From Enterobacteria phage CHB7, in sequence record MK562504.1: a DNA stretch of 64,000 bases; one strand, given 5' to 3'. A program made the position numbers and the translations under genes. Under the pieces are notes generated by a model. That model saw only the letters and a program-made list of their open reading frames with translations. It was not told the DNA's origin and did not search any database. Shown one piece after another: positions 61,797 to 64,000 of the stretch; within the stretch, counting starts at the first letter, position 1; each line of letters opens with the position of its first letter.

Positions 61797-62024
61797 ATTA
61801 AATCTTTGTAGAGAACTGCTAAGACGCCAAAGCAACAATGGTATCAAATGCCTTAACAATTCTCTAAAAAGACCTAACTGGTCTTTGCATAGTCTTGTTT
61901 AATCCGGTGACTAGAACCTTTGGAGAGCTTGATATTATCTCTTCTCCGTGACACCTACTAGGTGCTTTGTTGTGCGTGTACGACAATACACGAGGGAAAC
62001 CGAACGCTGTACCAGAGCGTGGGC

Positions 62025-62366
62025 TTAAATCTTTAAGCTAAGTTCAGTCTTGGACTTGACATCTTTAGCTTTGTAGATGACGACTTTATCAAGTGGTTCA
62101 ATGTAAACAGCTAAGTAATCAACTTGAGAGTTATCAAAATTCATTATTCTATTTTCATTCTTGTTAGAACGAACTCTTTTCAGTTGCACTCTCCAAAGTT
62201 CACCTCTTTTGACTGATGTTGATTTTACCTCAACAGTCTCAATCAAACCATCTTTGTGAACTAGAAAGTCATACTTTGCATTATCTGTAGCTGGTGAATA
62301 CACTTCATAACCTCTTTTGAGGAAAGCTAATTGTGTAGCAATTTCACCTACTGAACCTTTCTTCAT
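62025..62366 (-). CDS. PD-(D/E)xK-type nuclease-like protein (113 aa) inside the tRNA array
   Basis: GSVGEIATQLAFLKRGYEV...DFLV...IETVEVKS has the spacing of a restriction-endonuclease-like core. Start set at ATG 62366 with an AAGGTGGTGA ribosome-binding site; the track extension runs into tRNAs. Confidence 0.45.
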   Translation of the reverse strand: MKKGSVGEIATQLAFLKRGYEVYSPATDNAKYDFLVHKDGLIETVEVKSTSVKRGELWRVQLKRVRSNKNENRIMNFDNSQVDYLAVYIEPLDKVVIYKAKDVKSKTELSLKI

Positions 62367-62388
62367 AATCACCACCTTAAAATTATTT

Positions 62389-62475
62389 TGGCAGAGAGTG
62401 CAGGAGTTGAACCCGTACCGTTTCCAGCAGCACCAGTTTTCAAGGCTGGTTGGTCTCCGTTGACCGCCACTCTCT
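62389..62475 (-). tRNA. tRNA-Ser (UGA), long variable arm
   Basis: Anticodon loop CTTGAAA, extended variable arm, T-loop TTCAACT, CCA. Confidence 0.55.
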
Positions 62476-62488
62476 CCGAAACAATCTT

Positions 62489-62571
62489 TGGCATGGGACG
62501 GAGGAATCGAACCCCTTTGAGTAAGTTTTGGAGGCTTACGCACATGCCTTAGTGTCTTAACATCGTCCCAT
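62489..62571 (-). tRNA. tRNA-Trp (CCA), atypical 83-nt form
   Basis: Anticodon stem GTAAG/CTTAC with loop CTCCAAA; T-loop TTCGATT; CCA; acceptor ATGGGAC/GTCCCAT. About 7 extra nt between acceptor and D-stem. Confidence 0.45.
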
Positions 62572-62713
62572 ATATTATTTCGAAGCTTACCGTATTATCA
62601 CAACACTGTAAAGCCCCTTCTCAGATTATTTACATGTTCTGGAAAACATGAGATACAGACCACCTCCCTACAGGAAGACCCGCTTAGGTCGTCTAAGTAA
62701 TCTGCTAACTATT

Positions 62714-62790
62714 TGGTAGCCAAGGTAGGAGTCGAACCTACTTACTCTCGAAGGTAGCTAACCTTCAGTAACTTTCCGACTTTCGTACAT
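62714..62790 (-). ncRNA. tRNA-like element / possible degenerate tRNA
   Basis: Perfect T-arm (GTAGG-TTCGACT-CCTAC) and 3' ...CTTGGCTACCA, plus a perfect GAAGG-TTAGCTA-CCTTC stem-loop, but I could not pair a 5' acceptor strand at a tRNA-compatible distance. Confidence 0.3.
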
Positions 62791-62840
62791 CTGTTAACAT
62801 GTATTCAGATGGCTTACTAGTGTTGTCTTGACCATTAAAC

Positions 62841-62917
62841 TGGCACACCCTACAGGACTCGAACCTGTAACTCAGTGCTTAGAAGGCACTTGCTCTATCC
62901 AATTGAACTAAGGGTGC
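62841..62917 (-). tRNA. tRNA-Arg (UCU)
   Basis: Perfect anticodon stem AGTGC/GCACT, loop CTTCTAA; T-loop TTCGAGT; CCA. Confidence 0.65.
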
Positions 62918-63167
62918 ATTCTTATCTTTAAAGGCTCTCTTAGAAAACCCTTAAAGATGCCCACATTATTAATCATACCGTGGGCGAGTACGCCAAATTC
63001 TTTGATGAGGGGTTGGAAGACCTCACTGGTGTTTAGCCTATTAAGCTACTGCCAGAAAAACATTATCGTTTGCATTTATTTTAGTTTGCAAAAATAGACG
63101 CTACGCTAACGAAAACTAAGGTTACTATAAAGTGGTCACATCTGAATGTCAACAACTTTATCGAATT

Positions 63168-63243
63168 TGGTAGTGGTAGCAGGAATCGAACCTGCGATGT
63201 TCGGTTATCAGCCGAGTGTTATGACCGTCTTAACTATACCACC
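63168..63243 (-). tRNA. tRNA-Ile (GAU)
   Basis: Anticodon loop CTGATAA, T-loop TTCGATT, CCA. Confidence 0.65.
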
Positions 63244-63245
63244 AT

Positions 63246-63322
63246 TGGAGGTTCAGATGGGATTCGAACCCACATTCATAGGGCTTATGAAACCCTTGCA
63301 TTACCTTATCTGCGACTGAACC
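63246..63322 (-). tRNA. tRNA-Met (CAU)
   Basis: Perfect acceptor GGTTCAG/CTGAACC, anticodon loop TTCATAA, T-loop TTCGAAT, CCA. Initiator, elongator or Ile2 identity not resolved. Confidence 0.65.
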
Positions 63323-63331
63323 ATAATAAGT

Positions 63332-63396
63332 TGCCCTTTGGAGAAGAACTATTGAGTGGGTGTTTCCAGCCGCGCAGGTGTTCTTCAGTTAAGGGC
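63332..63396. other. long imperfect inverted repeat
   Basis: GCCCTT...GAAGAAC...(GC-rich loop CCAGCCGCGCAGG)...GTTCTTC...AAGGGC forms a two-tier stem of about 65 nt between two tRNAs. Confidence 0.35.
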
Positions 63397-63401
63397 TAAT
63401 T

Positions 63402-63477
63402 TGGTAGGAGTGGAGGGATTCGAACCCTTCGCCTGTCAGATTAAAAGTCTGCCGCATCACCATTCTGCTACACTCCC
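63402..63477 (-). tRNA. tRNA-Lys (UUU)
   Basis: Anticodon loop CTTTTAA, T-loop TTCGAAT, CCA. Confidence 0.6.
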
Positions 63478-63659
63478 ATTGAATCATCTTTGCAGTAACC
63501 TACGCAAACCTTGCTAAAGGGTTTGTAGAGTCATTTCCTATTAAGCTAATCTAGAATCATGCTAAGGAAATTCATCGGCACTCATGGGACGACATTTAGC
63601 TCCATAAGTCACTGCAAAGAGGATTACCAGACCGTTGTTTATCTTAAGTGCTCCCATTA

Positions 63660-63745
63660 CACCAACACGCCGTAACGTGTGAAGGAATCGAACCTTCGCC
63701 TTTTCTTTACCAGAGAAATAGATTGTTTTATACTTGCTGTAAACG
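63660..63745 (-). ncRNA. tRNA remnant / pseudo-tRNA (putative)
   Basis: Good T-arm (GAAGG-TTCGATT-CCTTC) and a perfect anticodon-like arm (TTTCT-CTGGTAA-AGAAA), but no matching acceptor stem and no CCA. Confidence 0.25.
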
Positions 63746-63904
63746 GTCTTCTGTAAATTTGTTGAGCCAGACCAAGTTTTAAATTTTTCAAAATTAAATT
63801 GGCTTGAAATTTTTTAAGTTGGCTTGCTGAATTTGGTCTTCTGCTCCTTTAAAGAACACTCGTAAGAACTCTTTAAGGGAGGGGCTAAAAAGCCCTCTCA
63901 AATT

Positions 63905-63982
63905 TGGCGGTTACGAAGGGATTCGAACCCTCATCATCTCCCGTGACAGGGGAGTATTTTAACCAGATTAAACTACATAACC
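63905..63982 (-). tRNA. tRNA-Asp (GUC)
   Basis: Perfect anticodon stem CTCCC/GGGAG, loop CTGTCAC; T-loop TTCGAAT; CCA. Confidence 0.65.
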
Positions 63983-63987
63983 TTTAT

Positions 63988-64000
63988 TTGGTGCGCCGTG
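63988..64000 (-). tRNA. 3' end of a further tRNA truncated by the window edge
   Basis: TGGTGCGCCGTG is the reverse complement of an acceptor 3' strand plus CCA; the rest lies outside the window. Confidence 0.3.

What the first reader, a model, noticed from the sequence alone, without database searches (positions are those of the whole stretch)
62489..62800. Atypical tRNA-Trp and a tRNA-like element with a perfect T-arm but no acceptor partner
The Trp(CCA) candidate has canonical anticodon and T-arms and a pairable acceptor stem, but about 7 extra nt between the acceptor and D-stem (83 nt total). The element at 62714..62790 ends in a perfect T-arm plus ...GCTACCA but I could not pair a 5' acceptor strand at a tRNA-compatible distance; it also has a perfect GAAGG-TTAGCTA-CCTTC stem-loop and a CATCTG/CAGATG inverted repeat. 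A third remnant sits at 63660..63745. These could be tRNAs with non-standard architecture, pseudo-tRNAs, or tRNA-derived regulatory RNAs.
Basis: seen in the sequence. Interest (0 to 1): 0.4.

Follow-up and report, generated by a model that had tools for sequence, protein, structure and literature searches.

The report
Odd tRNA-Trp plus phage tRNA mimics
In the tRNA gene array of this Felix O1-like phage, standard software misses a conserved, oddly built tryptophan tRNA and a 120-base tRNA look-alike that cannot decode; the look-alike belongs to a phage RNA family I could not find described.

Summary
The window is a Felix O1-like (Ounavirinae) phage with a minus-strand tRNA array.

(1) 62489-62571(-) is an 83-nt cloverleaf with anticodon CCA, discriminator G73 and an encoded CCA end. 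It has an invariant 9-nt linker (GAUGUUAAG) where tRNAs have 2 nt. It also has an 8/4-type acceptor/T-stem and a C31·A39 mismatch. It occurs in about 235 phage records and is never annotated. 8 of 19 pairs show compensatory changes. Trp is the only amino acid with no standard tRNA in these arrays, so this is most likely the phage's working tRNA-Trp.

(2) The second element does have an acceptor partner: GGUCAAG at 62827-62833. This makes a 120-nt tRNA-like RNA (62714-62833) with a hairpin inserted in the D-region. The anticodon position is a closed pentaloop, UAGCU, so it does not decode. A syntenic homologue exists in Yersinia phage P778. It is related to a ~95-nt phage RNA family absent from Rfam and resembles T4 rnaC. 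Its function is inferred to be tRNA mimicry.

(3) The "third remnant" is part of a 133-nt YrlA-like, capped tRNA-like domain (63623-63755).

In passing: a tmRNA-like tag RNA (ANDNVFLAVA**).

The parts
62489..62571 (-). Non-canonical tRNA-Trp(CCA), 83 nt with encoded CCA
   Evidence: Sequence. ARAGORN -mt calls mtRNA-Trp(cca). 14 distinct homologues: 99.6% of cells paired and 8/19 pairs compensatory. RNAalifold gives the same cloverleaf.
62565..62571 (-). tRNA-Trp acceptor 5' strand AUGGGAC. G8 can add an 8th pair with C65.
   Evidence: Pairs 1-72 and 2-71 covary (AU/GU/GC; UA/CG).
62556..62564 (-). Invariant 9-nt linker GAUGUUAAG between acceptor and D-stem (canonical tRNAs have 2 nt)
   Evidence: Identical in all 14 distinct sequences, including the Yersinia and Pectobacterium phages.
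62540..62555 (-). tRNA-Trp D-arm: stem CAC/GUG, loop with GG
   Evidence: Pair 19-32 covaries, UA in 8 sequences and AU in 6.
62521..62539 (-). tRNA-Trp anticodon arm. Anticodon CCA at 62529-62531. Has U33, A37 and a C31·A39 mismatch.
   Evidence: 4 of 5 stem pairs covary. CCA, U33 and A37 are invariant.
62500..62516 (-). tRNA-Trp T-arm: 4 pairs plus A49·C65, loop UUCGAUU
   Evidence: Pair 59-73 covaries GC/UA.
62489..62499 (-). tRNA-Trp acceptor 3' strand GUCCCAU + G73 + CCA
62714..62833 (-). E2: 120-nt tRNA-like RNA with a UAGCU pentaloop in place of the anticodon loop
   Evidence: Covariance model R1 scores 145 bits on itself. Homologues in 24 phage records. Syntenic homologue in Yersinia phage P778. 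All 27 pairs are kept in 7 variants and 26/27 with P778 added.
62827..62833 (-). E2 acceptor 5' strand GGUCAAG, starting 7 nt after the CCA of tRNA-Arg(UCU)
   Evidence: Pairs 7/7 with CUUGGCU at 62718-62724. P778 has GGUCUGU/GCAGACC, with 3 pairs compensated.
62788..62811 (-). E2 hairpin 1 (CAUCUG...CAGAUG), an insertion in the D-region
   Evidence: Covaries CG/UA between phage groups.
62772..62786 (-). E2 D-loop-like segment ACGAAAGUCGGAAAG. It contains a GG and is complementary over 7 nt to E2's own T-loop.
   Evidence: Invariant in 7 of 8 E2 variants; one variant has a single substitution, GGAUAG. RNAalifold and the MFE fold pair AGUCGGA with UUCGACU as an alternative to the T-arm.
62749..62767 (-). 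E2 anticodon-position arm: 7-bp stem, loop UAGCU
   Evidence: Positions 32-38 covary U-A/G-C, so the loop is 5 nt. The loop sequence is invariant, including in P778.
62725..62741 (-). E2 T-arm GUAGG-UUCGACU-CCUAC
62714..62724 (-). E2 acceptor 3' strand CUUGGCU + A73 + CCA
   Evidence: Relatives have CUUGACU-G-CCA; P778 has GCAGACC-G-UCU.
63623..63755 (-). Element (c): 133-nt capped, circularly permuted tRNA-like domain with YrlA-like topology.
   Evidence: RNAalifold on 14 variants gives an outer helix, a T-arm, a 7-bp capped acceptor-like stem with 3 covarying pairs, and a D-stem. The MFE fold is the same.
63702..63718 (-). (c) V hairpin UUUCU-CUGGUAA-AGAAA, the apparent 'Thr GGU anticodon arm'
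   Evidence: The loop varies among relatives (CUGGUAA, CCGGUAA, CCGGUAC, CGGUAA, CUAUGAA) and the hairpin is absent in Moogle-type phages.
63681..63697 (-). (c) T-arm GAAGG-UUCGAUU-CCUUC
   Evidence: Invariant.
63665..63680 (-). (c) acceptor-like stem closed by a loop (ACACGU-UACG-GCGUGU)
   Evidence: Three sequence types, all compensated. The Moogle type reads ACCCUUC-GCCA-AACA-GAAGGGU.
63648..63662 (-). (c) D-arm GUGU-AAUGGGA-GCAC
   Evidence: Conserved.

Best explanation
The stretch belongs to the minus-strand tRNA array of a Felix O1-like phage. It encodes two RNAs that are released like tRNAs: RNase P cuts at the 5' end, and the CCA is already encoded.

(a) 62489-62571 is the phage's tRNA-Trp(CCA).
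- It is a real cloverleaf with a 7-nt insertion after position 8/9 and an 8-bp acceptor/4-bp T-stem arrangement. It also has a weak 3-bp D-stem and a C31·A39 mismatch.
- These departures are why tRNA finders reject it.
- It keeps what E. coli TrpRS and decoding need: CCA, U33, A37, G73 and A1-U72.
- I infer that the host TrpRS charges it and that it reads UGG. That would complete a 20-amino-acid phage tRNA set.

(b) 62714-62833 (E2) is a 120-nt tRNA mimic.
- It has a 7-bp acceptor stem, a T-arm, a D-loop-like GG segment, a hairpin inserted in the D-region and an anticodon-sized arm.
- In that arm, positions 32 and 38 pair, leaving an invariant UAGCU pentaloop. It therefore cannot present an anticodon.
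- I infer that it accumulates as a small stable RNA, as T4 rnaC does. I also infer that it works by occupying or diverting a tRNA-binding partner that reads the elbow/acceptor and the UAGCU loop, either a host tRNA-directed defence or a tRNA-processing enzyme.

(c) The third 'remnant' is part of a separate capped tRNA-like domain with YrlA topology.

Shown: the structures, their conservation and covariation, synteny, and the failure of standard models.
Inferred: processing, aminoacylation, decoding, and the decoy mechanism.
For: Context
- 92% identity to Felixounavirus/Suspvirus genomes.
- 21 standard tRNAs on the same strand, and the six tRNAs whose structures were drawn end in CCA. Spacers are 7 nt (tRNA-Arg to E2) and 13 nt (tRNA-Trp to tRNA-Ser).

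tRNA-Trp
- Present in 235 phage records and annotated in none of the 60 listed.
- 14 distinct sequences: 99.6% of cells paired, 8/19 pairs compensatory, 0/500 shuffles reach the covariation score, and slid controls collapse to 31-52% paired.
- RNAalifold independently returns the cloverleaf with an 8-bp acceptor, as does the MFE fold.
- The linker, the anticodon, U33 and A37 are invariant.
- The window plus relatives' annotations cover 19 amino acids, all but Trp. Published counts agree: a Moogle-like phage has 26 tRNAs for 19 amino acids (PMC12482277), and the text of the Felix O1 genome paper does not mention Trp (PMC3185647).
- UGG makes up 1.3% of codons.

E2
- The acceptor partner was found by alignment.
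- All 27 pairs are kept in 7 variants.
- The P778 homologue sits in the same place (Arg-UCU, E2, Trp, Ser-UGA) and is compensated in the acceptor, D-stem, hairpin 1 and hairpin 2, with an identical UAGCU loop.
- The 32-38 pair covaries U-A/G-C.
- Reciprocal model hits link E2 to a ~95-nt phage family.
- That family's motif is rare in bacteria, with 12 hits in 185,579 genomes. None of the family members or bacterial relatives I scanned matched an Rfam family above threshold.
- T4 has rnaD and rnaC directly after its tRNA-Arg, which I recall carries UCU (the record names only arginyl-tRNA). rnaC has a T-arm and a 7-bp acceptor.
Against: - No expression, processing or charging data exist for any of these RNAs (literature searches found none).
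- The tRNA-Trp carries several destabilising features together: the 9-nt linker, a 3-bp D-stem, C31·A39 and A49·C65. Thermodynamic z-scores are unremarkable, -0.8 to -1.2.
- Sequence diversity is modest: 14 and 8 distinct sequences from a few clades. Independent compensatory events are therefore fewer than the cell counts suggest.
- The E2 alignment that includes P778 was fitted to the model. P778 scores 32.7 bits, only slightly above an ordinary tRNA-Met at 31.2 bits with the same model. That homology therefore rests on synteny and architecture.
- E2 is missing from most Felixounavirus genomes, as a clean CCA-to-CCA absence. It is dispensable.
- The 3' tail is not always CCA: GUCU in P778 and ACAA and similar in the 95-nt family.
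- No partner for the UAGCU loop was identified, and no protein gene is a conserved neighbour.
Confidence: 0.6

Rival explanations
1. All three elements are decaying tRNA pseudogenes: remnants of duplicated tRNA genes with insertions and no function.
For: - Standard detectors reject them.
- E2 is absent from most Felixounavirus genomes.
- The 'anticodon' hairpin of element (c) drifts in sequence and length.
- tRNAscan-SE already labels other tRNAs in these arrays 'pseudo'.
Against: - The cloverleaf of the Trp element is kept by compensatory changes in all four helices, out to the Yersinia and Pectobacterium phages, and the 9-nt insertion is invariant.
- E2 helices are compensated while its loop is invariant.
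- The capped stem of (c) exists in three fully compensated versions.
- Neutral decay would break pairs.
Confidence: 0.08
2. E2 is a genuine decoding tRNA with anticodon AGC (Ala, or another identity) that merely carries a hairpin insertion in its D-loop. The Trp element is likewise just an odd but ordinary decoder.
For: - Relaxed ARAGORN calls tRNA-Ala(agc).
- The arm has the canonical 17-nt size with a U at position 33. In the window the loop could open to UUAGCUA.
- A GC-rich viral contig has a 90-nt RNA with the same loop that default ARAGORN calls tRNA-Ala(agc).
Against: - Positions 32 and 38 covary as Watson-Crick pairs, U-A or G-C. This closes the loop to 5 nt.
- Position 37 is U, where working tRNAs have a purine.
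- There is no G3·U70 for AlaRS: U3·G70 in the window and U3-A70 elsewhere.
- The array already has tRNA-Ala(UGC).
Confidence: 0.08
3. The Trp element is not used for ordinary UGG decoding. It is a recoding or regulatory tRNA-Trp variant: for example a Hirsh-type UGA reader, made possible by the disturbed position-9/D-arm region, or a TrpRS or attenuation decoy.
For: - The changes cluster where the E. coli tRNA-Trp miscoding mutations lie (position 9 and the D-stem; from my own knowledge of the Hirsh suppressor).
- The insertion is invariant, which suggests selected function rather than mere tolerance.
Against: - It is the only Trp-type tRNA in a set that otherwise covers 19 amino acids. The simplest role is plain decoding.
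- The phage does not avoid UGA stops: 12 of 62 long ORFs end in UGA.
Confidence: 0.1
4. E2 and/or element (c) are pieces of a fragmented (two- or multi-piece) phage tmRNA. They would act with the tag-encoding RNA between tRNA-Ile and tRNA-Arg.
For: - Default ARAGORN calls a permuted tmRNA in Moogle and HP1. It uses the T-arm + ACCCUUC-GCCA of (c) as the 3' domain and the tag ANDNVFLAVA**. The Moogle genome announcement reports ssrA (PMC4319497).
- The Rfam tmRNA_permuted model scores 38.7 bits in the window.
- The tag ORF is nearly invariant, and its substitutions are synonymous or stop-preserving.
Against: - No G3·U70 in either acceptor stem.
- In the window the acceptor-like stem of (c) is closed by a tetraloop with no CCA.
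- Three tRNA genes separate (c) from the tag.
- P778 has E2 but no tag RNA, and Felixounavirus has the tag RNA but no E2.
- The 5' tRNA domains ARAGORN picked lie in the promoter or in tRNA-Lys.
- The Rfam score is below the gathering threshold, and the alignment borrows the T-arm of tRNA-Ile.
Confidence: 0.06
5. E2 and (c) are cis-acting processing or stability elements ('punctuation'). They recruit RNase P and related enzymes to cut the long tRNA-cluster transcript, and they have no trans function.
For: - They sit inside the array with tRNA-like spacing and a tRNA-like acceptor/T-arm.
- U at -1 and an A/U-rich leader precede G+1.
Against: - Flanking real tRNAs already supply RNase P sites every ~80 nt.
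- The element conserved across the family is the UAGCU loop, far from the cleavage site.
- The clean absence of E2 from Felixounavirus leaves the neighbouring tRNAs intact.
Confidence: 0.12

Closest known systems
Canonical bacterial/phage tRNA-Trp (E. coli tRNA-Trp CCA)
   Same: - Cloverleaf with anticodon CCA, U33, A36-A37-A38, G73, A1-U72, a UUCGA T-loop, GG in the D-loop and an encoded CCA.
- The anticodon stem-loop of most relatives (CGGCCUCCAAAACCG) differs from my recalled E. coli sequence (CGGUCUCCAAAACCG) by one base.
   Different: - 9 nt instead of 2 between the acceptor and the D-stem.
- 8-bp acceptor with a 4-bp T-stem, or equivalently an A49·C65 mismatch.
- 3-bp D-stem.
- C31·A39 mismatch with G26-C44 paired.
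- The Rfam tRNA model does not report it at all, and the best score is 20 bits with the tRNA-Sec model.
Phage T4 rnaC (species 1 RNA) and rnaD, the small stable RNAs of the T4 tRNA cluster
   Same: - Encoded directly downstream of tRNA-Arg (UCU in the window; I recall UCU for T4) in a phage tRNA cluster.
- 119-139 nt.
- rnaC ends in a T-arm (CCGGG-UUCGAAU-CCCGG) plus a 3' strand, CGUUUCG. This pairs 7/7 with an internal CGGAACG followed by UU-CGGAUA, as in the 95-nt family.
- A 5' extension precedes the tRNA-like domain.
- Function unknown.
   Different: - No BLAST similarity, and model R1 does not hit it.
- Model R2 gives only 19.2 bits.
- No UAGCU loop.
- T4 rnaC has no encoded CCA.
Unnamed ~95-nt phage tRNA-like family found here (AGUCAGG-UU-GGAUACAAG-[T-arm-like hairpin]-GGAAGGUC...-GGG UAGCU CCC-UGUAG-T-arm-CCUGACU)
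   Same: - 7-bp acceptor of similar sequence (xGUCAxG/CxUGACU).
- The UAGCU loop is closed by G-C pairs just upstream of the T-arm.
- A GAARGUC..GGA segment.
- Located in phage tRNA arrays and missed by ARAGORN and Rfam.
- Reciprocal covariance-model hits: R1 gives ~30 bits on family members, and R2 gives 32.5 and 26.0 bits on E2.
   Different: - E2 carries a 19-nt 5' extension that supplies the acceptor strand it now uses.
- The segment of E2 that aligns with the family's 5' acceptor strand (AGUUAUC/AGCCAUC) overlaps the 5' strand of hairpin 1.
- The family's first T-arm-like hairpin is not recognisable in E2.
- The scores are only a few bits above ordinary tRNAs.
YrlA (bacterial Y RNA with a tRNA-like domain; Chen et al. 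2014, PMC4201824)
   Same: - For element (c): a closing stem, then a variable (V) hairpin, a T-arm, a capped acceptor-like stem-loop and a D-arm, in that order.
- The Moogle-type version has a 7-bp stem and GCCA in the loop. This is like M. smegmatis YrlA, which RNase P cuts and which receives CCA.
   Different: - No Ro60/Rsr gene nearby.
- No GNCGAAN0-1G motif in the stem's 5' strand.
- No Rfam match other than a partial tRNA hit.
Two-piece (circularly permuted) tmRNA
   Same: - Gene order T-arm, 3' acceptor strand, CCA, loop, 5' acceptor strand in Moogle-type (c).
- A tag-like ORF, ANDNVFLAVA, with two stop codons in a hairpin downstream.
- Called as tmRNA by ARAGORN in some relatives.
   Different: - No G3·U70.
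- A true D-arm rather than a tmRNA D-loop.
- The tag lies 570 nt away, behind three tRNA genes and its own promoter.
- In the window the acceptor-like stem is capped and has no CCA.

Membership tests
Canonical tRNA (Rfam RF00005 / ARAGORN default) | Score above the family threshold with standard models | tested here: not met
   There is no ARAGORN call and no RF00005 hit at the gathering threshold for 62489-62571 or 62714-62833. In E-value mode the best scores are 20.1 bits (tRNA-Sec model) and 16.5 bits (tRNA model, truncated).
Canonical tRNA (Rfam RF00005 / ARAGORN default) | 7-bp acceptor stem, discriminator base and CCA | tested here: met
   Trp element: AUGGGAC/GUCCCAU-G-CCA. E2: GGUCAAG/CUUGGCU-A-CCA.
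Canonical tRNA (Rfam RF00005 / ARAGORN default) | Two nucleotides (8, 9) between the acceptor and the D-stem | tested here: not met
   The Trp element has 9 nt (GAUGUUAAG), invariant. E2 has 2 nt, but about 50 nt sit inside its D-stem.
Canonical tRNA (Rfam RF00005 / ARAGORN default) | 5-bp anticodon stem with an open 7-nt loop, U33 and a purine at 37 | tested here: inconclusive
   Trp element: met except for C31·A39 (or a 9-nt loop). E2: not met, because 32-38 covary as a pair and position 37 is U.
tRNA-Trp identity (E. coli TrpRS; identity set recalled from the literature) | Anticodon CCA, discriminator G73, A1-U72 | tested here: met
   CCA and G73 are in all 14 sequences. Position 1-72 is A1-U72 in 9, G·U in 3 and G-C in 2. 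Charging itself cannot be tested with these tools.
tmRNA (one- or two-piece) | Acceptor stem with G3·U70, for alanine charging | tested here: not met
   E2 has U3·G70 or U3-A70. Moogle-type (c) has A3-U70, and the window's (c) stem is capped.
tmRNA (one- or two-piece) | Tag reading frame within the same RNA as the tRNA-like domain | tested here: not met
   The tag ORF at 63038-63073 has its own TTGACA-N17-TATAGT promoter. It is separated from (c) by tRNA-Lys, tRNA-Met and tRNA-Ile, and from E2 by tRNA-Arg.
tmRNA (one- or two-piece) | Score above the Rfam or default ARAGORN threshold | tested here: not met
   tmRNA_permuted scores 38.7 bits against a gathering score of 47. ARAGORN finds it in the window only at -ps80. 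Default ARAGORN does call it in Moogle and HP1.
YrlA / bacterial Y RNA | Order stem, (V), T-arm, capped acceptor-like stem-loop, D-arm, stem | tested here: met
   Element (c), 63623-63755: compared with PMC4201824.
YrlA / bacterial Y RNA | Encoded next to an rsr (Ro60/TROVE) gene | tested here: not met
   No TROVE domain in the seven ORFs of 450-665 aa that I scanned, out of 13 ORFs of at least 380 aa; the other six were not scanned. The neighbours of (c) are tRNA genes.
YrlA / bacterial Y RNA | GNCGAAN0-1G motif in the 5' strand of the Ro-binding stem | tested here: not met
   The only matches in 62300-64000 are GGCGAAGG, at the V/T junction of (c) and in tRNA-Lys.
T4 rnaC-type small stable RNA of phage tRNA clusters | Non-tRNA RNA of ~120-140 nt inside the tRNA cluster, with a tRNA-like 3' domain (T-arm plus acceptor) | tested here: met
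   E2 is 120 nt and lies directly after tRNA-Arg(UCU).
T4 rnaC-type small stable RNA of phage tRNA clusters | Detectable sequence or structure homology to T4 rnaC | tested here: inconclusive
   There is no BLAST hit and no R1 hit. R2 gives 19.2 bits on the 3' 95 nt of rnaC, against 9.6 bits for T4 tRNA-Arg.
T4 rnaC-type small stable RNA of phage tRNA clusters | Accumulates as a stable processed RNA in infected cells | not testable with these tools
   Needs Northern blots or RNA-seq.
UAGCU-loop phage tRNA-like family (defined here) | 7-bp acceptor, T-arm, and a GG(G/U)-UAGCU-(C/A)CC hairpin 4-13 nt upstream of the T-arm, inside a phage tRNA array | tested here: met
   E2, P778 and about 50 IMG/VR loci.
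UAGCU-loop phage tRNA-like family (defined here) | Reciprocal covariance-model hits clearly above ordinary tRNAs | tested here: inconclusive
   R2 is highest on E2 (32.5 and 26.0 bits), but tRNA-Met scores 26.8 and 23.5. R1 gives 28-34 bits on family members and 31.2 on tRNA-Met.

The most novel reading that the evidence does not exclude
E2, the ~95-nt UAGCU-loop RNAs found in dozens of uncultivated phage contigs and a few Streptomyces genomes, and possibly T4 rnaC would form one widespread, phage-borne class of non-decoding tRNA mimics. Their conserved pentaloop and tRNA elbow would capture a specific tRNA-handling protein. The most attractive candidate is a tRNA-cleaving or tRNA-modifying immunity effector, which would make these RNAs decoys. 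This would finally give a function to the T4 'species 1' RNA. Separately, the invariant 7-nt insertion in the tRNA-Trp may be an adaptation that keeps the tRNA functional while escaping such an effector.
Probability: 0.2. Interest if true: 0.8.

Novelty: new variant of a known kind. Interest (0 to 1): 0.58.

Why it matters
1. Annotation. Several hundred sequenced Felix O1-like phages, many of them proposed for biocontrol or therapy, are annotated as lacking tRNA-Trp. They most likely carry one. It would make them phages with a complete 20-amino-acid tRNA set. That bears on the current debate over whether phage tRNAs replace host tRNAs destroyed by defence nucleases (PMC10264068, PMC11555353).

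2. tRNA structure. This tRNA-Trp would be a natural example of a bacterial-type tRNA that tolerates 7 extra nucleotides at the acceptor/D junction and has an 8/4 acceptor/T arrangement. It is useful for tRNA structure work, for engineering, and for improving detectors.

3. A new family. E2 ties a Felix O1-like element to a phage-enriched tRNA-like RNA family. Rfam matched none of the members I scanned and the literature searches found nothing. The family may also include T4 rnaC, whose role has been unknown since the 1970s. The invariant UAGCU loop gives a concrete handle for pull-downs and genetics.

4. The region as a whole. The same 1.7 kb also holds a YrlA-like domain and a tmRNA-like tag RNA. 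This part of the phage genome is a cluster of tRNA mimics, not just a tRNA array.

Tried and rejected
- **ARAGORN with intron detection (-i)** found nothing new. At -ps70/-ps80 it produced many clearly spurious calls, which I ignored apart from those overlapping the candidates.
- **Alternative pairings for the 9-nt Trp linker** (with the D-loop CAU, the variable loop, or the anticodon stem 3' strand) are not conserved in the Yersinia and Pectobacterium versions. Rejected on reading.
- **Proximal acceptor for E2** (AGCCA/UGGCU, 5 bp). It is perfect only in the window and mismatched in mistaenkt and SUSP2. I rejected it in favour of GGUCAAG, which pairs 7/7 everywhere.
- **A D-arm-like reading of GUUUAAUGGUCAAGAC** proposed by the Rfam tRNA alignment is not conserved in Moogle or P778.
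- **E2 as the tRNA-like domain for the tag RNA.** Rejected because the two occur independently: P778 has E2 only, and Felixounavirus has the tag only. There is also no G3·U70.
- **Base-pairing between the tag RNA 5' end and the 3' part of the (c) RNA.** About 10 bp is possible in the window, but that segment already sits in a covarying helix and the pairing is not kept in UAB_Phi87 (reading).
- **A second tag ORF at '...UUAGCUUAAUAGG' downstream of (c).** Rejected: in relatives those bases covary as a helix.
- **Ro60-binding resemblance** (E2's 3' strand CUUGACU equals my recalled human Y1 RNA strand). There is no bulged C, and I judged it a 7-mer coincidence.
- **BLAST of the P778 E2-like RNA** found only itself.
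- **Neighbour-gene clustering** around 50 family loci found no conserved protein; the best cluster covers 8 of 50 loci.
- **Stop-codon usage** gave no sign of UGA avoidance.
- **Literature searches** for a Felix O1 tmRNA, tRNA-Trp, transcriptome, or phage tRNA-like decoys found only the ARAGORN 'ssrA' remarks in genome announcements.


Full report
**Where this is**

BLAST of 62300-63000 finds Felix O1-like myoviruses (Ounavirinae: Felixounavirus, Suspvirus, Mooglevirus) at up to 92-93% identity. ARAGORN finds 21 tRNA genes, all on the minus strand between 58936 and 63982. Rfam confirms 19 of them at the gathering score, plus one partial hit at 63681-63734. The six array tRNAs whose structures were drawn end in an encoded CCA, and most are separated by only a few bases. 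In none of the related records I opened, nor in the 60 rows listed for the Trp element, is anything annotated at the equivalent places apart from occasional 'hypothetical protein' calls.

**Element 1: a non-canonical tRNA-Trp, 62489-62571(-)**

The minus strand reads:

AUGGGAC GAUGUUAAG (A)CAC-UAAGGCAU-GUG(C) GUAAG-C-CUCCAAA-A-CUUAC UCAA(A) GGGG-UUCGAUU-CCUC C GUCCCAU G CCA

It is 83 nt, with seven nucleotides too many between the acceptor and the D-stem.

- Default ARAGORN and ARAGORN with introns do not call it. Metazoan-mitochondrial mode calls 'mtRNA-Trp(cca)'.
- The Rfam tRNA model does not report it even in a 363-nt search at E ≤ 10. The best match is the tRNA-Sec model at 20.1 bits.

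A 124-nt query finds it in 235 phage records. I collected 14 distinct versions, including two distant ones from Yersinia phage P778 and Pectobacterium phage Arno18. On my cloverleaf:

- 99.6% of cells are standard pairs.
- 8 of 19 pairs show changes on both sides.
- 0 of 500 shuffles reach the observed covariation score.
- Sliding the 3' partners by 1-3 columns drops pairing to 31-52%, with almost no covariation.

RNAalifold, given no structure, returns the same four helices. It extends the acceptor to 8 bp (G8-C65), leaving a 4-bp T-stem. The single-sequence MFE fold is identical.

The anticodon stem exists in three compensated versions: GUAAG/CUUAC, AACGG/CCGUU and GUAGG/CCUAC. The D-stem flips CAC/GUG to CUC/GAG, and the T-stem flips G-C to U-A.

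Invariant features are the anticodon CCA, U33, A37, the 9-nt linker GAUGUUAAG and G73. Position 31·39 is always a mismatch, C·A or C·C.

By my own knowledge of E. coli TrpRS identity (CCA, G73, A1-U72) and of MiaA (A36-A37-A38), the molecule keeps what it needs to be charged and modified.

The array in the window, together with the tRNAs just beyond it in relatives (Tyr, Asn, Met, Glu, Pro), covers 19 amino acids. The one missing is Trp. [quoted passage not shown] The text of the Felix O1 genome paper never mentions Trp (PMC3185647). UGG makes up 1.3% of codons in the window's long ORFs.

I conclude that this is the phage's tRNA-Trp, missed because of its architecture. Structure, conservation and identity elements are shown. 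Processing, charging and decoding are inferred.

**Element 2: E2, a 120-nt tRNA mimic, 62714-62833(-)**

Aligning the tRNA-Arg to tRNA-Ser interval of nine phages shows that the 3' strand CUUG(A/G)CU pairs 7/7 with GGUCAAG. That strand starts seven bases after the CCA of tRNA-Arg(UCU).

In Barry and UAB_Phi87 the whole unit is cleanly absent, from one CCA to the next. It is present in only 24 records, from Suspvirus, Mooglevirus and this phage's group.

The RNA is built as follows:

| Part | Sequence / description |
|---|---|
| Acceptor | 7 bp |
| Linker | AC |
| D-stem | 3 bp, AAC/GUU, enclosing the next two parts |
| Hairpin 1 | CAUCUG...CAGAUG |
| D-loop-like segment | ACGAAAGUCGGAAAG |
| Anticodon-sized arm | 7-bp stem with the UAGCU loop |
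| Linker | AGAGUAA |
| T-arm | GUAGG-UUCGACU-CCUAC |
| 3' end | acceptor 3' strand, A73, CCA |

All 27 pairs are standard pairs in all 7 variants, with compensatory changes in hairpin 1 and in the anticodon-position arm.

The key observation is that the nucleotides at positions 32 and 38 covary as U-A or G-C. The loop is therefore the 5-nt UAGCU, not a 7-nt anticodon loop. Position 37 would be U.

A covariance model of E2 (R1) finds a 117-nt homologue in Yersinia phage P778. It sits at exactly the same place: tRNA-Ile, tRNA-Arg(UCU), E2, tRNA-Trp-like, tRNA-Ser(UGA). Its acceptor (GGUCUGU/GCAGACC), D-stem (CAC/GUG), hairpin 1 and hairpin 2 (GAUGGG/CCCAUU) are all compensated. Its UAGCU loop is identical. 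One caveat: the alignment was fitted to the model, and the 32.7-bit score is close to that of an ordinary tRNA-Met, 31.2 bits. The case for homology therefore rests on synteny and architecture. P778's copy ends GUCU, not CCA.

RNAalifold and the MFE fold also offer a 7-bp pairing between AGUCGGA and the T-loop UUCGACU. This may be an alternative conformer, or an exaggerated D-loop/T-loop contact.

**A wider family**

I scanned IMG/VR for TAGCTMCC followed within 6-20 nt by a T-arm and searched the hits with R1. This exposed a ~95-nt RNA present in about 50 viral loci:

AGUCAGG-UU-GGAUACAAG-GUCGG UUCGAGU CCGAU-GGAAGGUCAUGGAUGUC-GGG UAGCU CCC-UGUAG-AGAGG UUCGAUU CCUCU-CCUGACU-A-CAA

- Its acceptor, first hairpin and T-arm covary.
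- ARAGORN does not call the copies in the loci checked (L222, L203), and no Rfam family matches them at E ≤ 1 in three member loci scanned.
- A model of this family (R2) gives its best scores in Moogle and in the window to E2: 32.5 and 26.0 bits. It aligns the family's 5' end AGUCAGGUUGGAUAC with E2's internal AGUUAUCUUAGAUAC.
- The margin over tRNA-Met (26.8 and 23.5 bits) is small. I rate the relationship as likely, not proven.
- The motif pair GGGTAGCTCCC...GGTTCRANTCC occurs only 12 times in one genome from each of 185,579 bacterial species. Among those hits are 125-130-nt versions in Streptomyces scoring 41 and 37 bits. None of the three bacterial loci I scanned reached an Rfam gathering score; the only match was a sub-threshold tRNA-Sec hit.
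- No protein gene is a conserved neighbour.

**Comparison with T4**

In T4 the tRNA-Arg gene (the record names no anticodon; I recall UCU) is followed directly by rnaD (119 nt) and rnaC (139 nt), annotated as small stable RNAs. The sequence shows that rnaC ends in CCGGG-UUCGAAU-CCCGG plus CGUUUCG.

R2 aligns its last 95 nt at 19.2 bits, against 9.6 bits for T4 tRNA-Arg. It uses an internal CGGAACG as a 7-bp acceptor partner, followed by UU-CGGAUA. E2 is therefore the same kind of object as rnaC: a tRNA-like domain with a 5' extension, sitting after tRNA-Arg. Homology is unproven. As far as I know, the function of rnaC has never been established.

**How E2 most likely works**

Shown:
- A conserved tRNA-shaped RNA with tRNA-like flanks, a U at -1, an encoded CCA in this phage, a closed invariant pentaloop and no G3·U70.

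Inferred:
- It is cut out by RNase P and accumulates.
- It does not decode.
- It acts through tRNA mimicry, binding a factor that recognises the tRNA elbow/acceptor together with the UAGCU loop.

Phage tRNAs are now known to counter tRNA-cleaving defences (PMC10264068, PMC11555353). I therefore think a decoy or antagonist role is the most likely specific mechanism, at roughly 0.3. A cis processing role and true decoding are less likely alternatives. Because E2 is dispensable in Felixounavirus, an accessory, host-dependent function fits.

**Element 3: the 'third remnant'**

Aligning the tRNA-Asp to tRNA-Lys spacer shows that the T-arm GAAGG-UUCGAUU-CCUUC (63681-63697) is not followed by an acceptor strand and CCA. 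It is followed by a hairpin that exists in three fully compensated versions:

- window: ACACGU-UACG-GCGUGU
- Felixounavirus: ACUCGGC-AGAU-GUCGAGU
- Moogle type: ACCCUUC-GCCAAACA-GAAGGGU

After the hairpin comes a D-arm, GUGU-AAUGGGA-GCAC. The whole unit is enclosed by the helix AGACCGU/ACGGUCU.

The apparent Thr(GGU) anticodon arm is a variable hairpin. Its loop changes sequence, shrinks to 6 nt, or is absent altogether.

The order is closing stem, V hairpin, T-arm, capped acceptor-like stem, D-arm. This is the topology described for YrlA. It includes the M. smegmatis case, in which a 7-bp stem is cut by RNase P and receives CCA (PMC4201824). The Moogle-type loop even encodes G-CCA.

Membership in YrlA is not supported:
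- No Ro60 gene among the seven large ORFs (450-665 aa) scanned; the six largest were not scanned.
- No GNCGAAN0-1G motif in the stem.
- No Rfam match beyond the partial tRNA hit.

Default ARAGORN joins this T-arm + GCCA in Moogle and HP1 with a tag ORF 570 nt downstream and calls the result a 'permuted tmRNA'. This is evidently the 'ssrA' reported in the Moogle genome announcement (PMC4319497). I regard that composite as unsupported. There is no G3·U70, three tRNA genes intervene, and the 5' tRNA domain ARAGORN picked lies in tRNA-Lys.

**The tag RNA (noticed in passing)**

Between tRNA-Ile and tRNA-Arg lies a near-consensus promoter, TTGACA-N17-TATAGT (63124-63152). It precedes an RNA containing AAUAAAU-GCA AAC GAU AAU GUU UUU CUG GCA GUA GCU UAA UAG, i.e. 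ANDNVFLAVA** (63038-63073).

- This matches ARAGORN's tmRNA resume consensus and the Rfam tmRNA_permuted model at 38.7 bits, below the gathering score of 47.
- Across 21 variants the only changes are GAU to GAC (synonymous), UAA to UGA (stop kept) and one Val to Ala.
- The stop codons sit in a hairpin, and a downstream helix covaries (UGAGG/CCUCA against CAGGG/CCCUG).
- I found no tRNA-like domain belonging to it. What it does is open.

**Verdict**

None is simple debris.

Nothing here is categorically new, since odd tRNAs, T4 rnaC, YrlA and tmRNA-like RNAs are all known kinds. However, I found neither the tRNA-Trp architecture nor the UAGCU-loop family in Rfam matches, in the genome records I opened, or in the literature I could search.

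Noticed in passing
window 62918-63152 (-): promoter 63124-63152, tag ORF 63038-63073: A tmRNA-like 'tag RNA' lies between tRNA-Ile and tRNA-Arg. It has a near-consensus sigma-70 promoter, then AAUAAAU followed by an ORF encoding ANDNVFLAVA and two stop codons held in a hairpin, and covarying helices downstream. The tag is nearly invariant in 21 variants, and its changes are synonymous or stop-preserving apart from one Val to Ala change. It has no tRNA-like domain of its own. It is absent from Yersinia phage P778 and Pectobacterium phage Arno18.
   Followed up: partly
window 63480-63622 (-), downstream of element (c): About 140 nt more of structured RNA lies between the YrlA-like domain and tRNA-Lys. 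A long-range helix CUUUGCAG/CUGCAAAG covaries to CUUUGUAG/CUACAAAG. The hairpin AUUUCCU/AGGAAAU covaries to UCUCUU/AAGAGA, and CUACAAACC/GGUUUGCGUAG covaries to CUACAGAC/GUCUGGGUAG. Together with (c) this could be one ncRNA of about 280 nt.
   Followed up: partly
window 63756-63900 (-): Upstream of (c) there is a direct repeat of its 5' module: CAGAAGACCAAAUUCAGCAAG against CAGAAGACCGUUUACAGCAAG. Each copy is closed by a helix AGACCNN/NNGGUCU followed by GG. The first unit encloses an A/U-rich stretch.
   Followed up: no
window 62572-62713 (-), spacer between E2 and tRNA-Trp: The spacer contains a 48-nt block that is invariant in all nine phages compared: GGAGGUGGUCUGUAUCUCAUGUUUUCCAGAACAUGUAAAUAAUCUGAG. 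Within it are a perfect hairpin, CAUGUU-UUCCAG-AACAUG, and a possible 7-codon ORF (MFSRTCK) behind GGAGG. Moogle-type phages carry an extra hairpin insertion upstream of the block.
   Followed up: no
window 62920-62960 and 63850-63885 (-): Similar CUUUAAAGG-type inverted repeats precede tRNA-Arg (AUCUUUAAGGG...CCUUUAAAGAU) and follow tRNA-Asp (CCUUAAAGA...UCUUUAAAGG). They may be repeated processing or regulatory hairpins.
   Followed up: no
loci L285 24-148 and L280 2978-3107 (Streptomyces genomes); L215/L212 (GC-rich viral contigs): There are 125-130-nt relatives of the UAGCU-loop family with two T-arm-like hairpins in Streptomyces (41 and 37 bits with R2). There is also a 90-nt GC-rich viral version that default ARAGORN calls tRNA-Ala(agc). 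None matches an Rfam family.
   Followed up: partly
L199 1909-2047 (phage T4 rnaC): The 3' strand of T4 rnaC, CGUUUCG, pairs 7/7 with an internal CGGAACG. That gives a 95-nt tRNA-like domain preceded by a ~45-nt 5' extension. The extension's own start, CGAUUCG, pairs only 5/7. This is the same layout as E2.
   Followed up: partly
window 61797-62388 (-), between tRNA-Leu(UAG) and tRNA-Ser(UGA): This is a ~590-nt gap in the array. At the same place, relatives carry either an HNH endonuclease gene (mistaenkt, Maleficent) or nothing. The tRNA array is therefore a hot spot for insertions and deletions, including the CCA-to-CCA presence or absence of E2.
   Followed up: no
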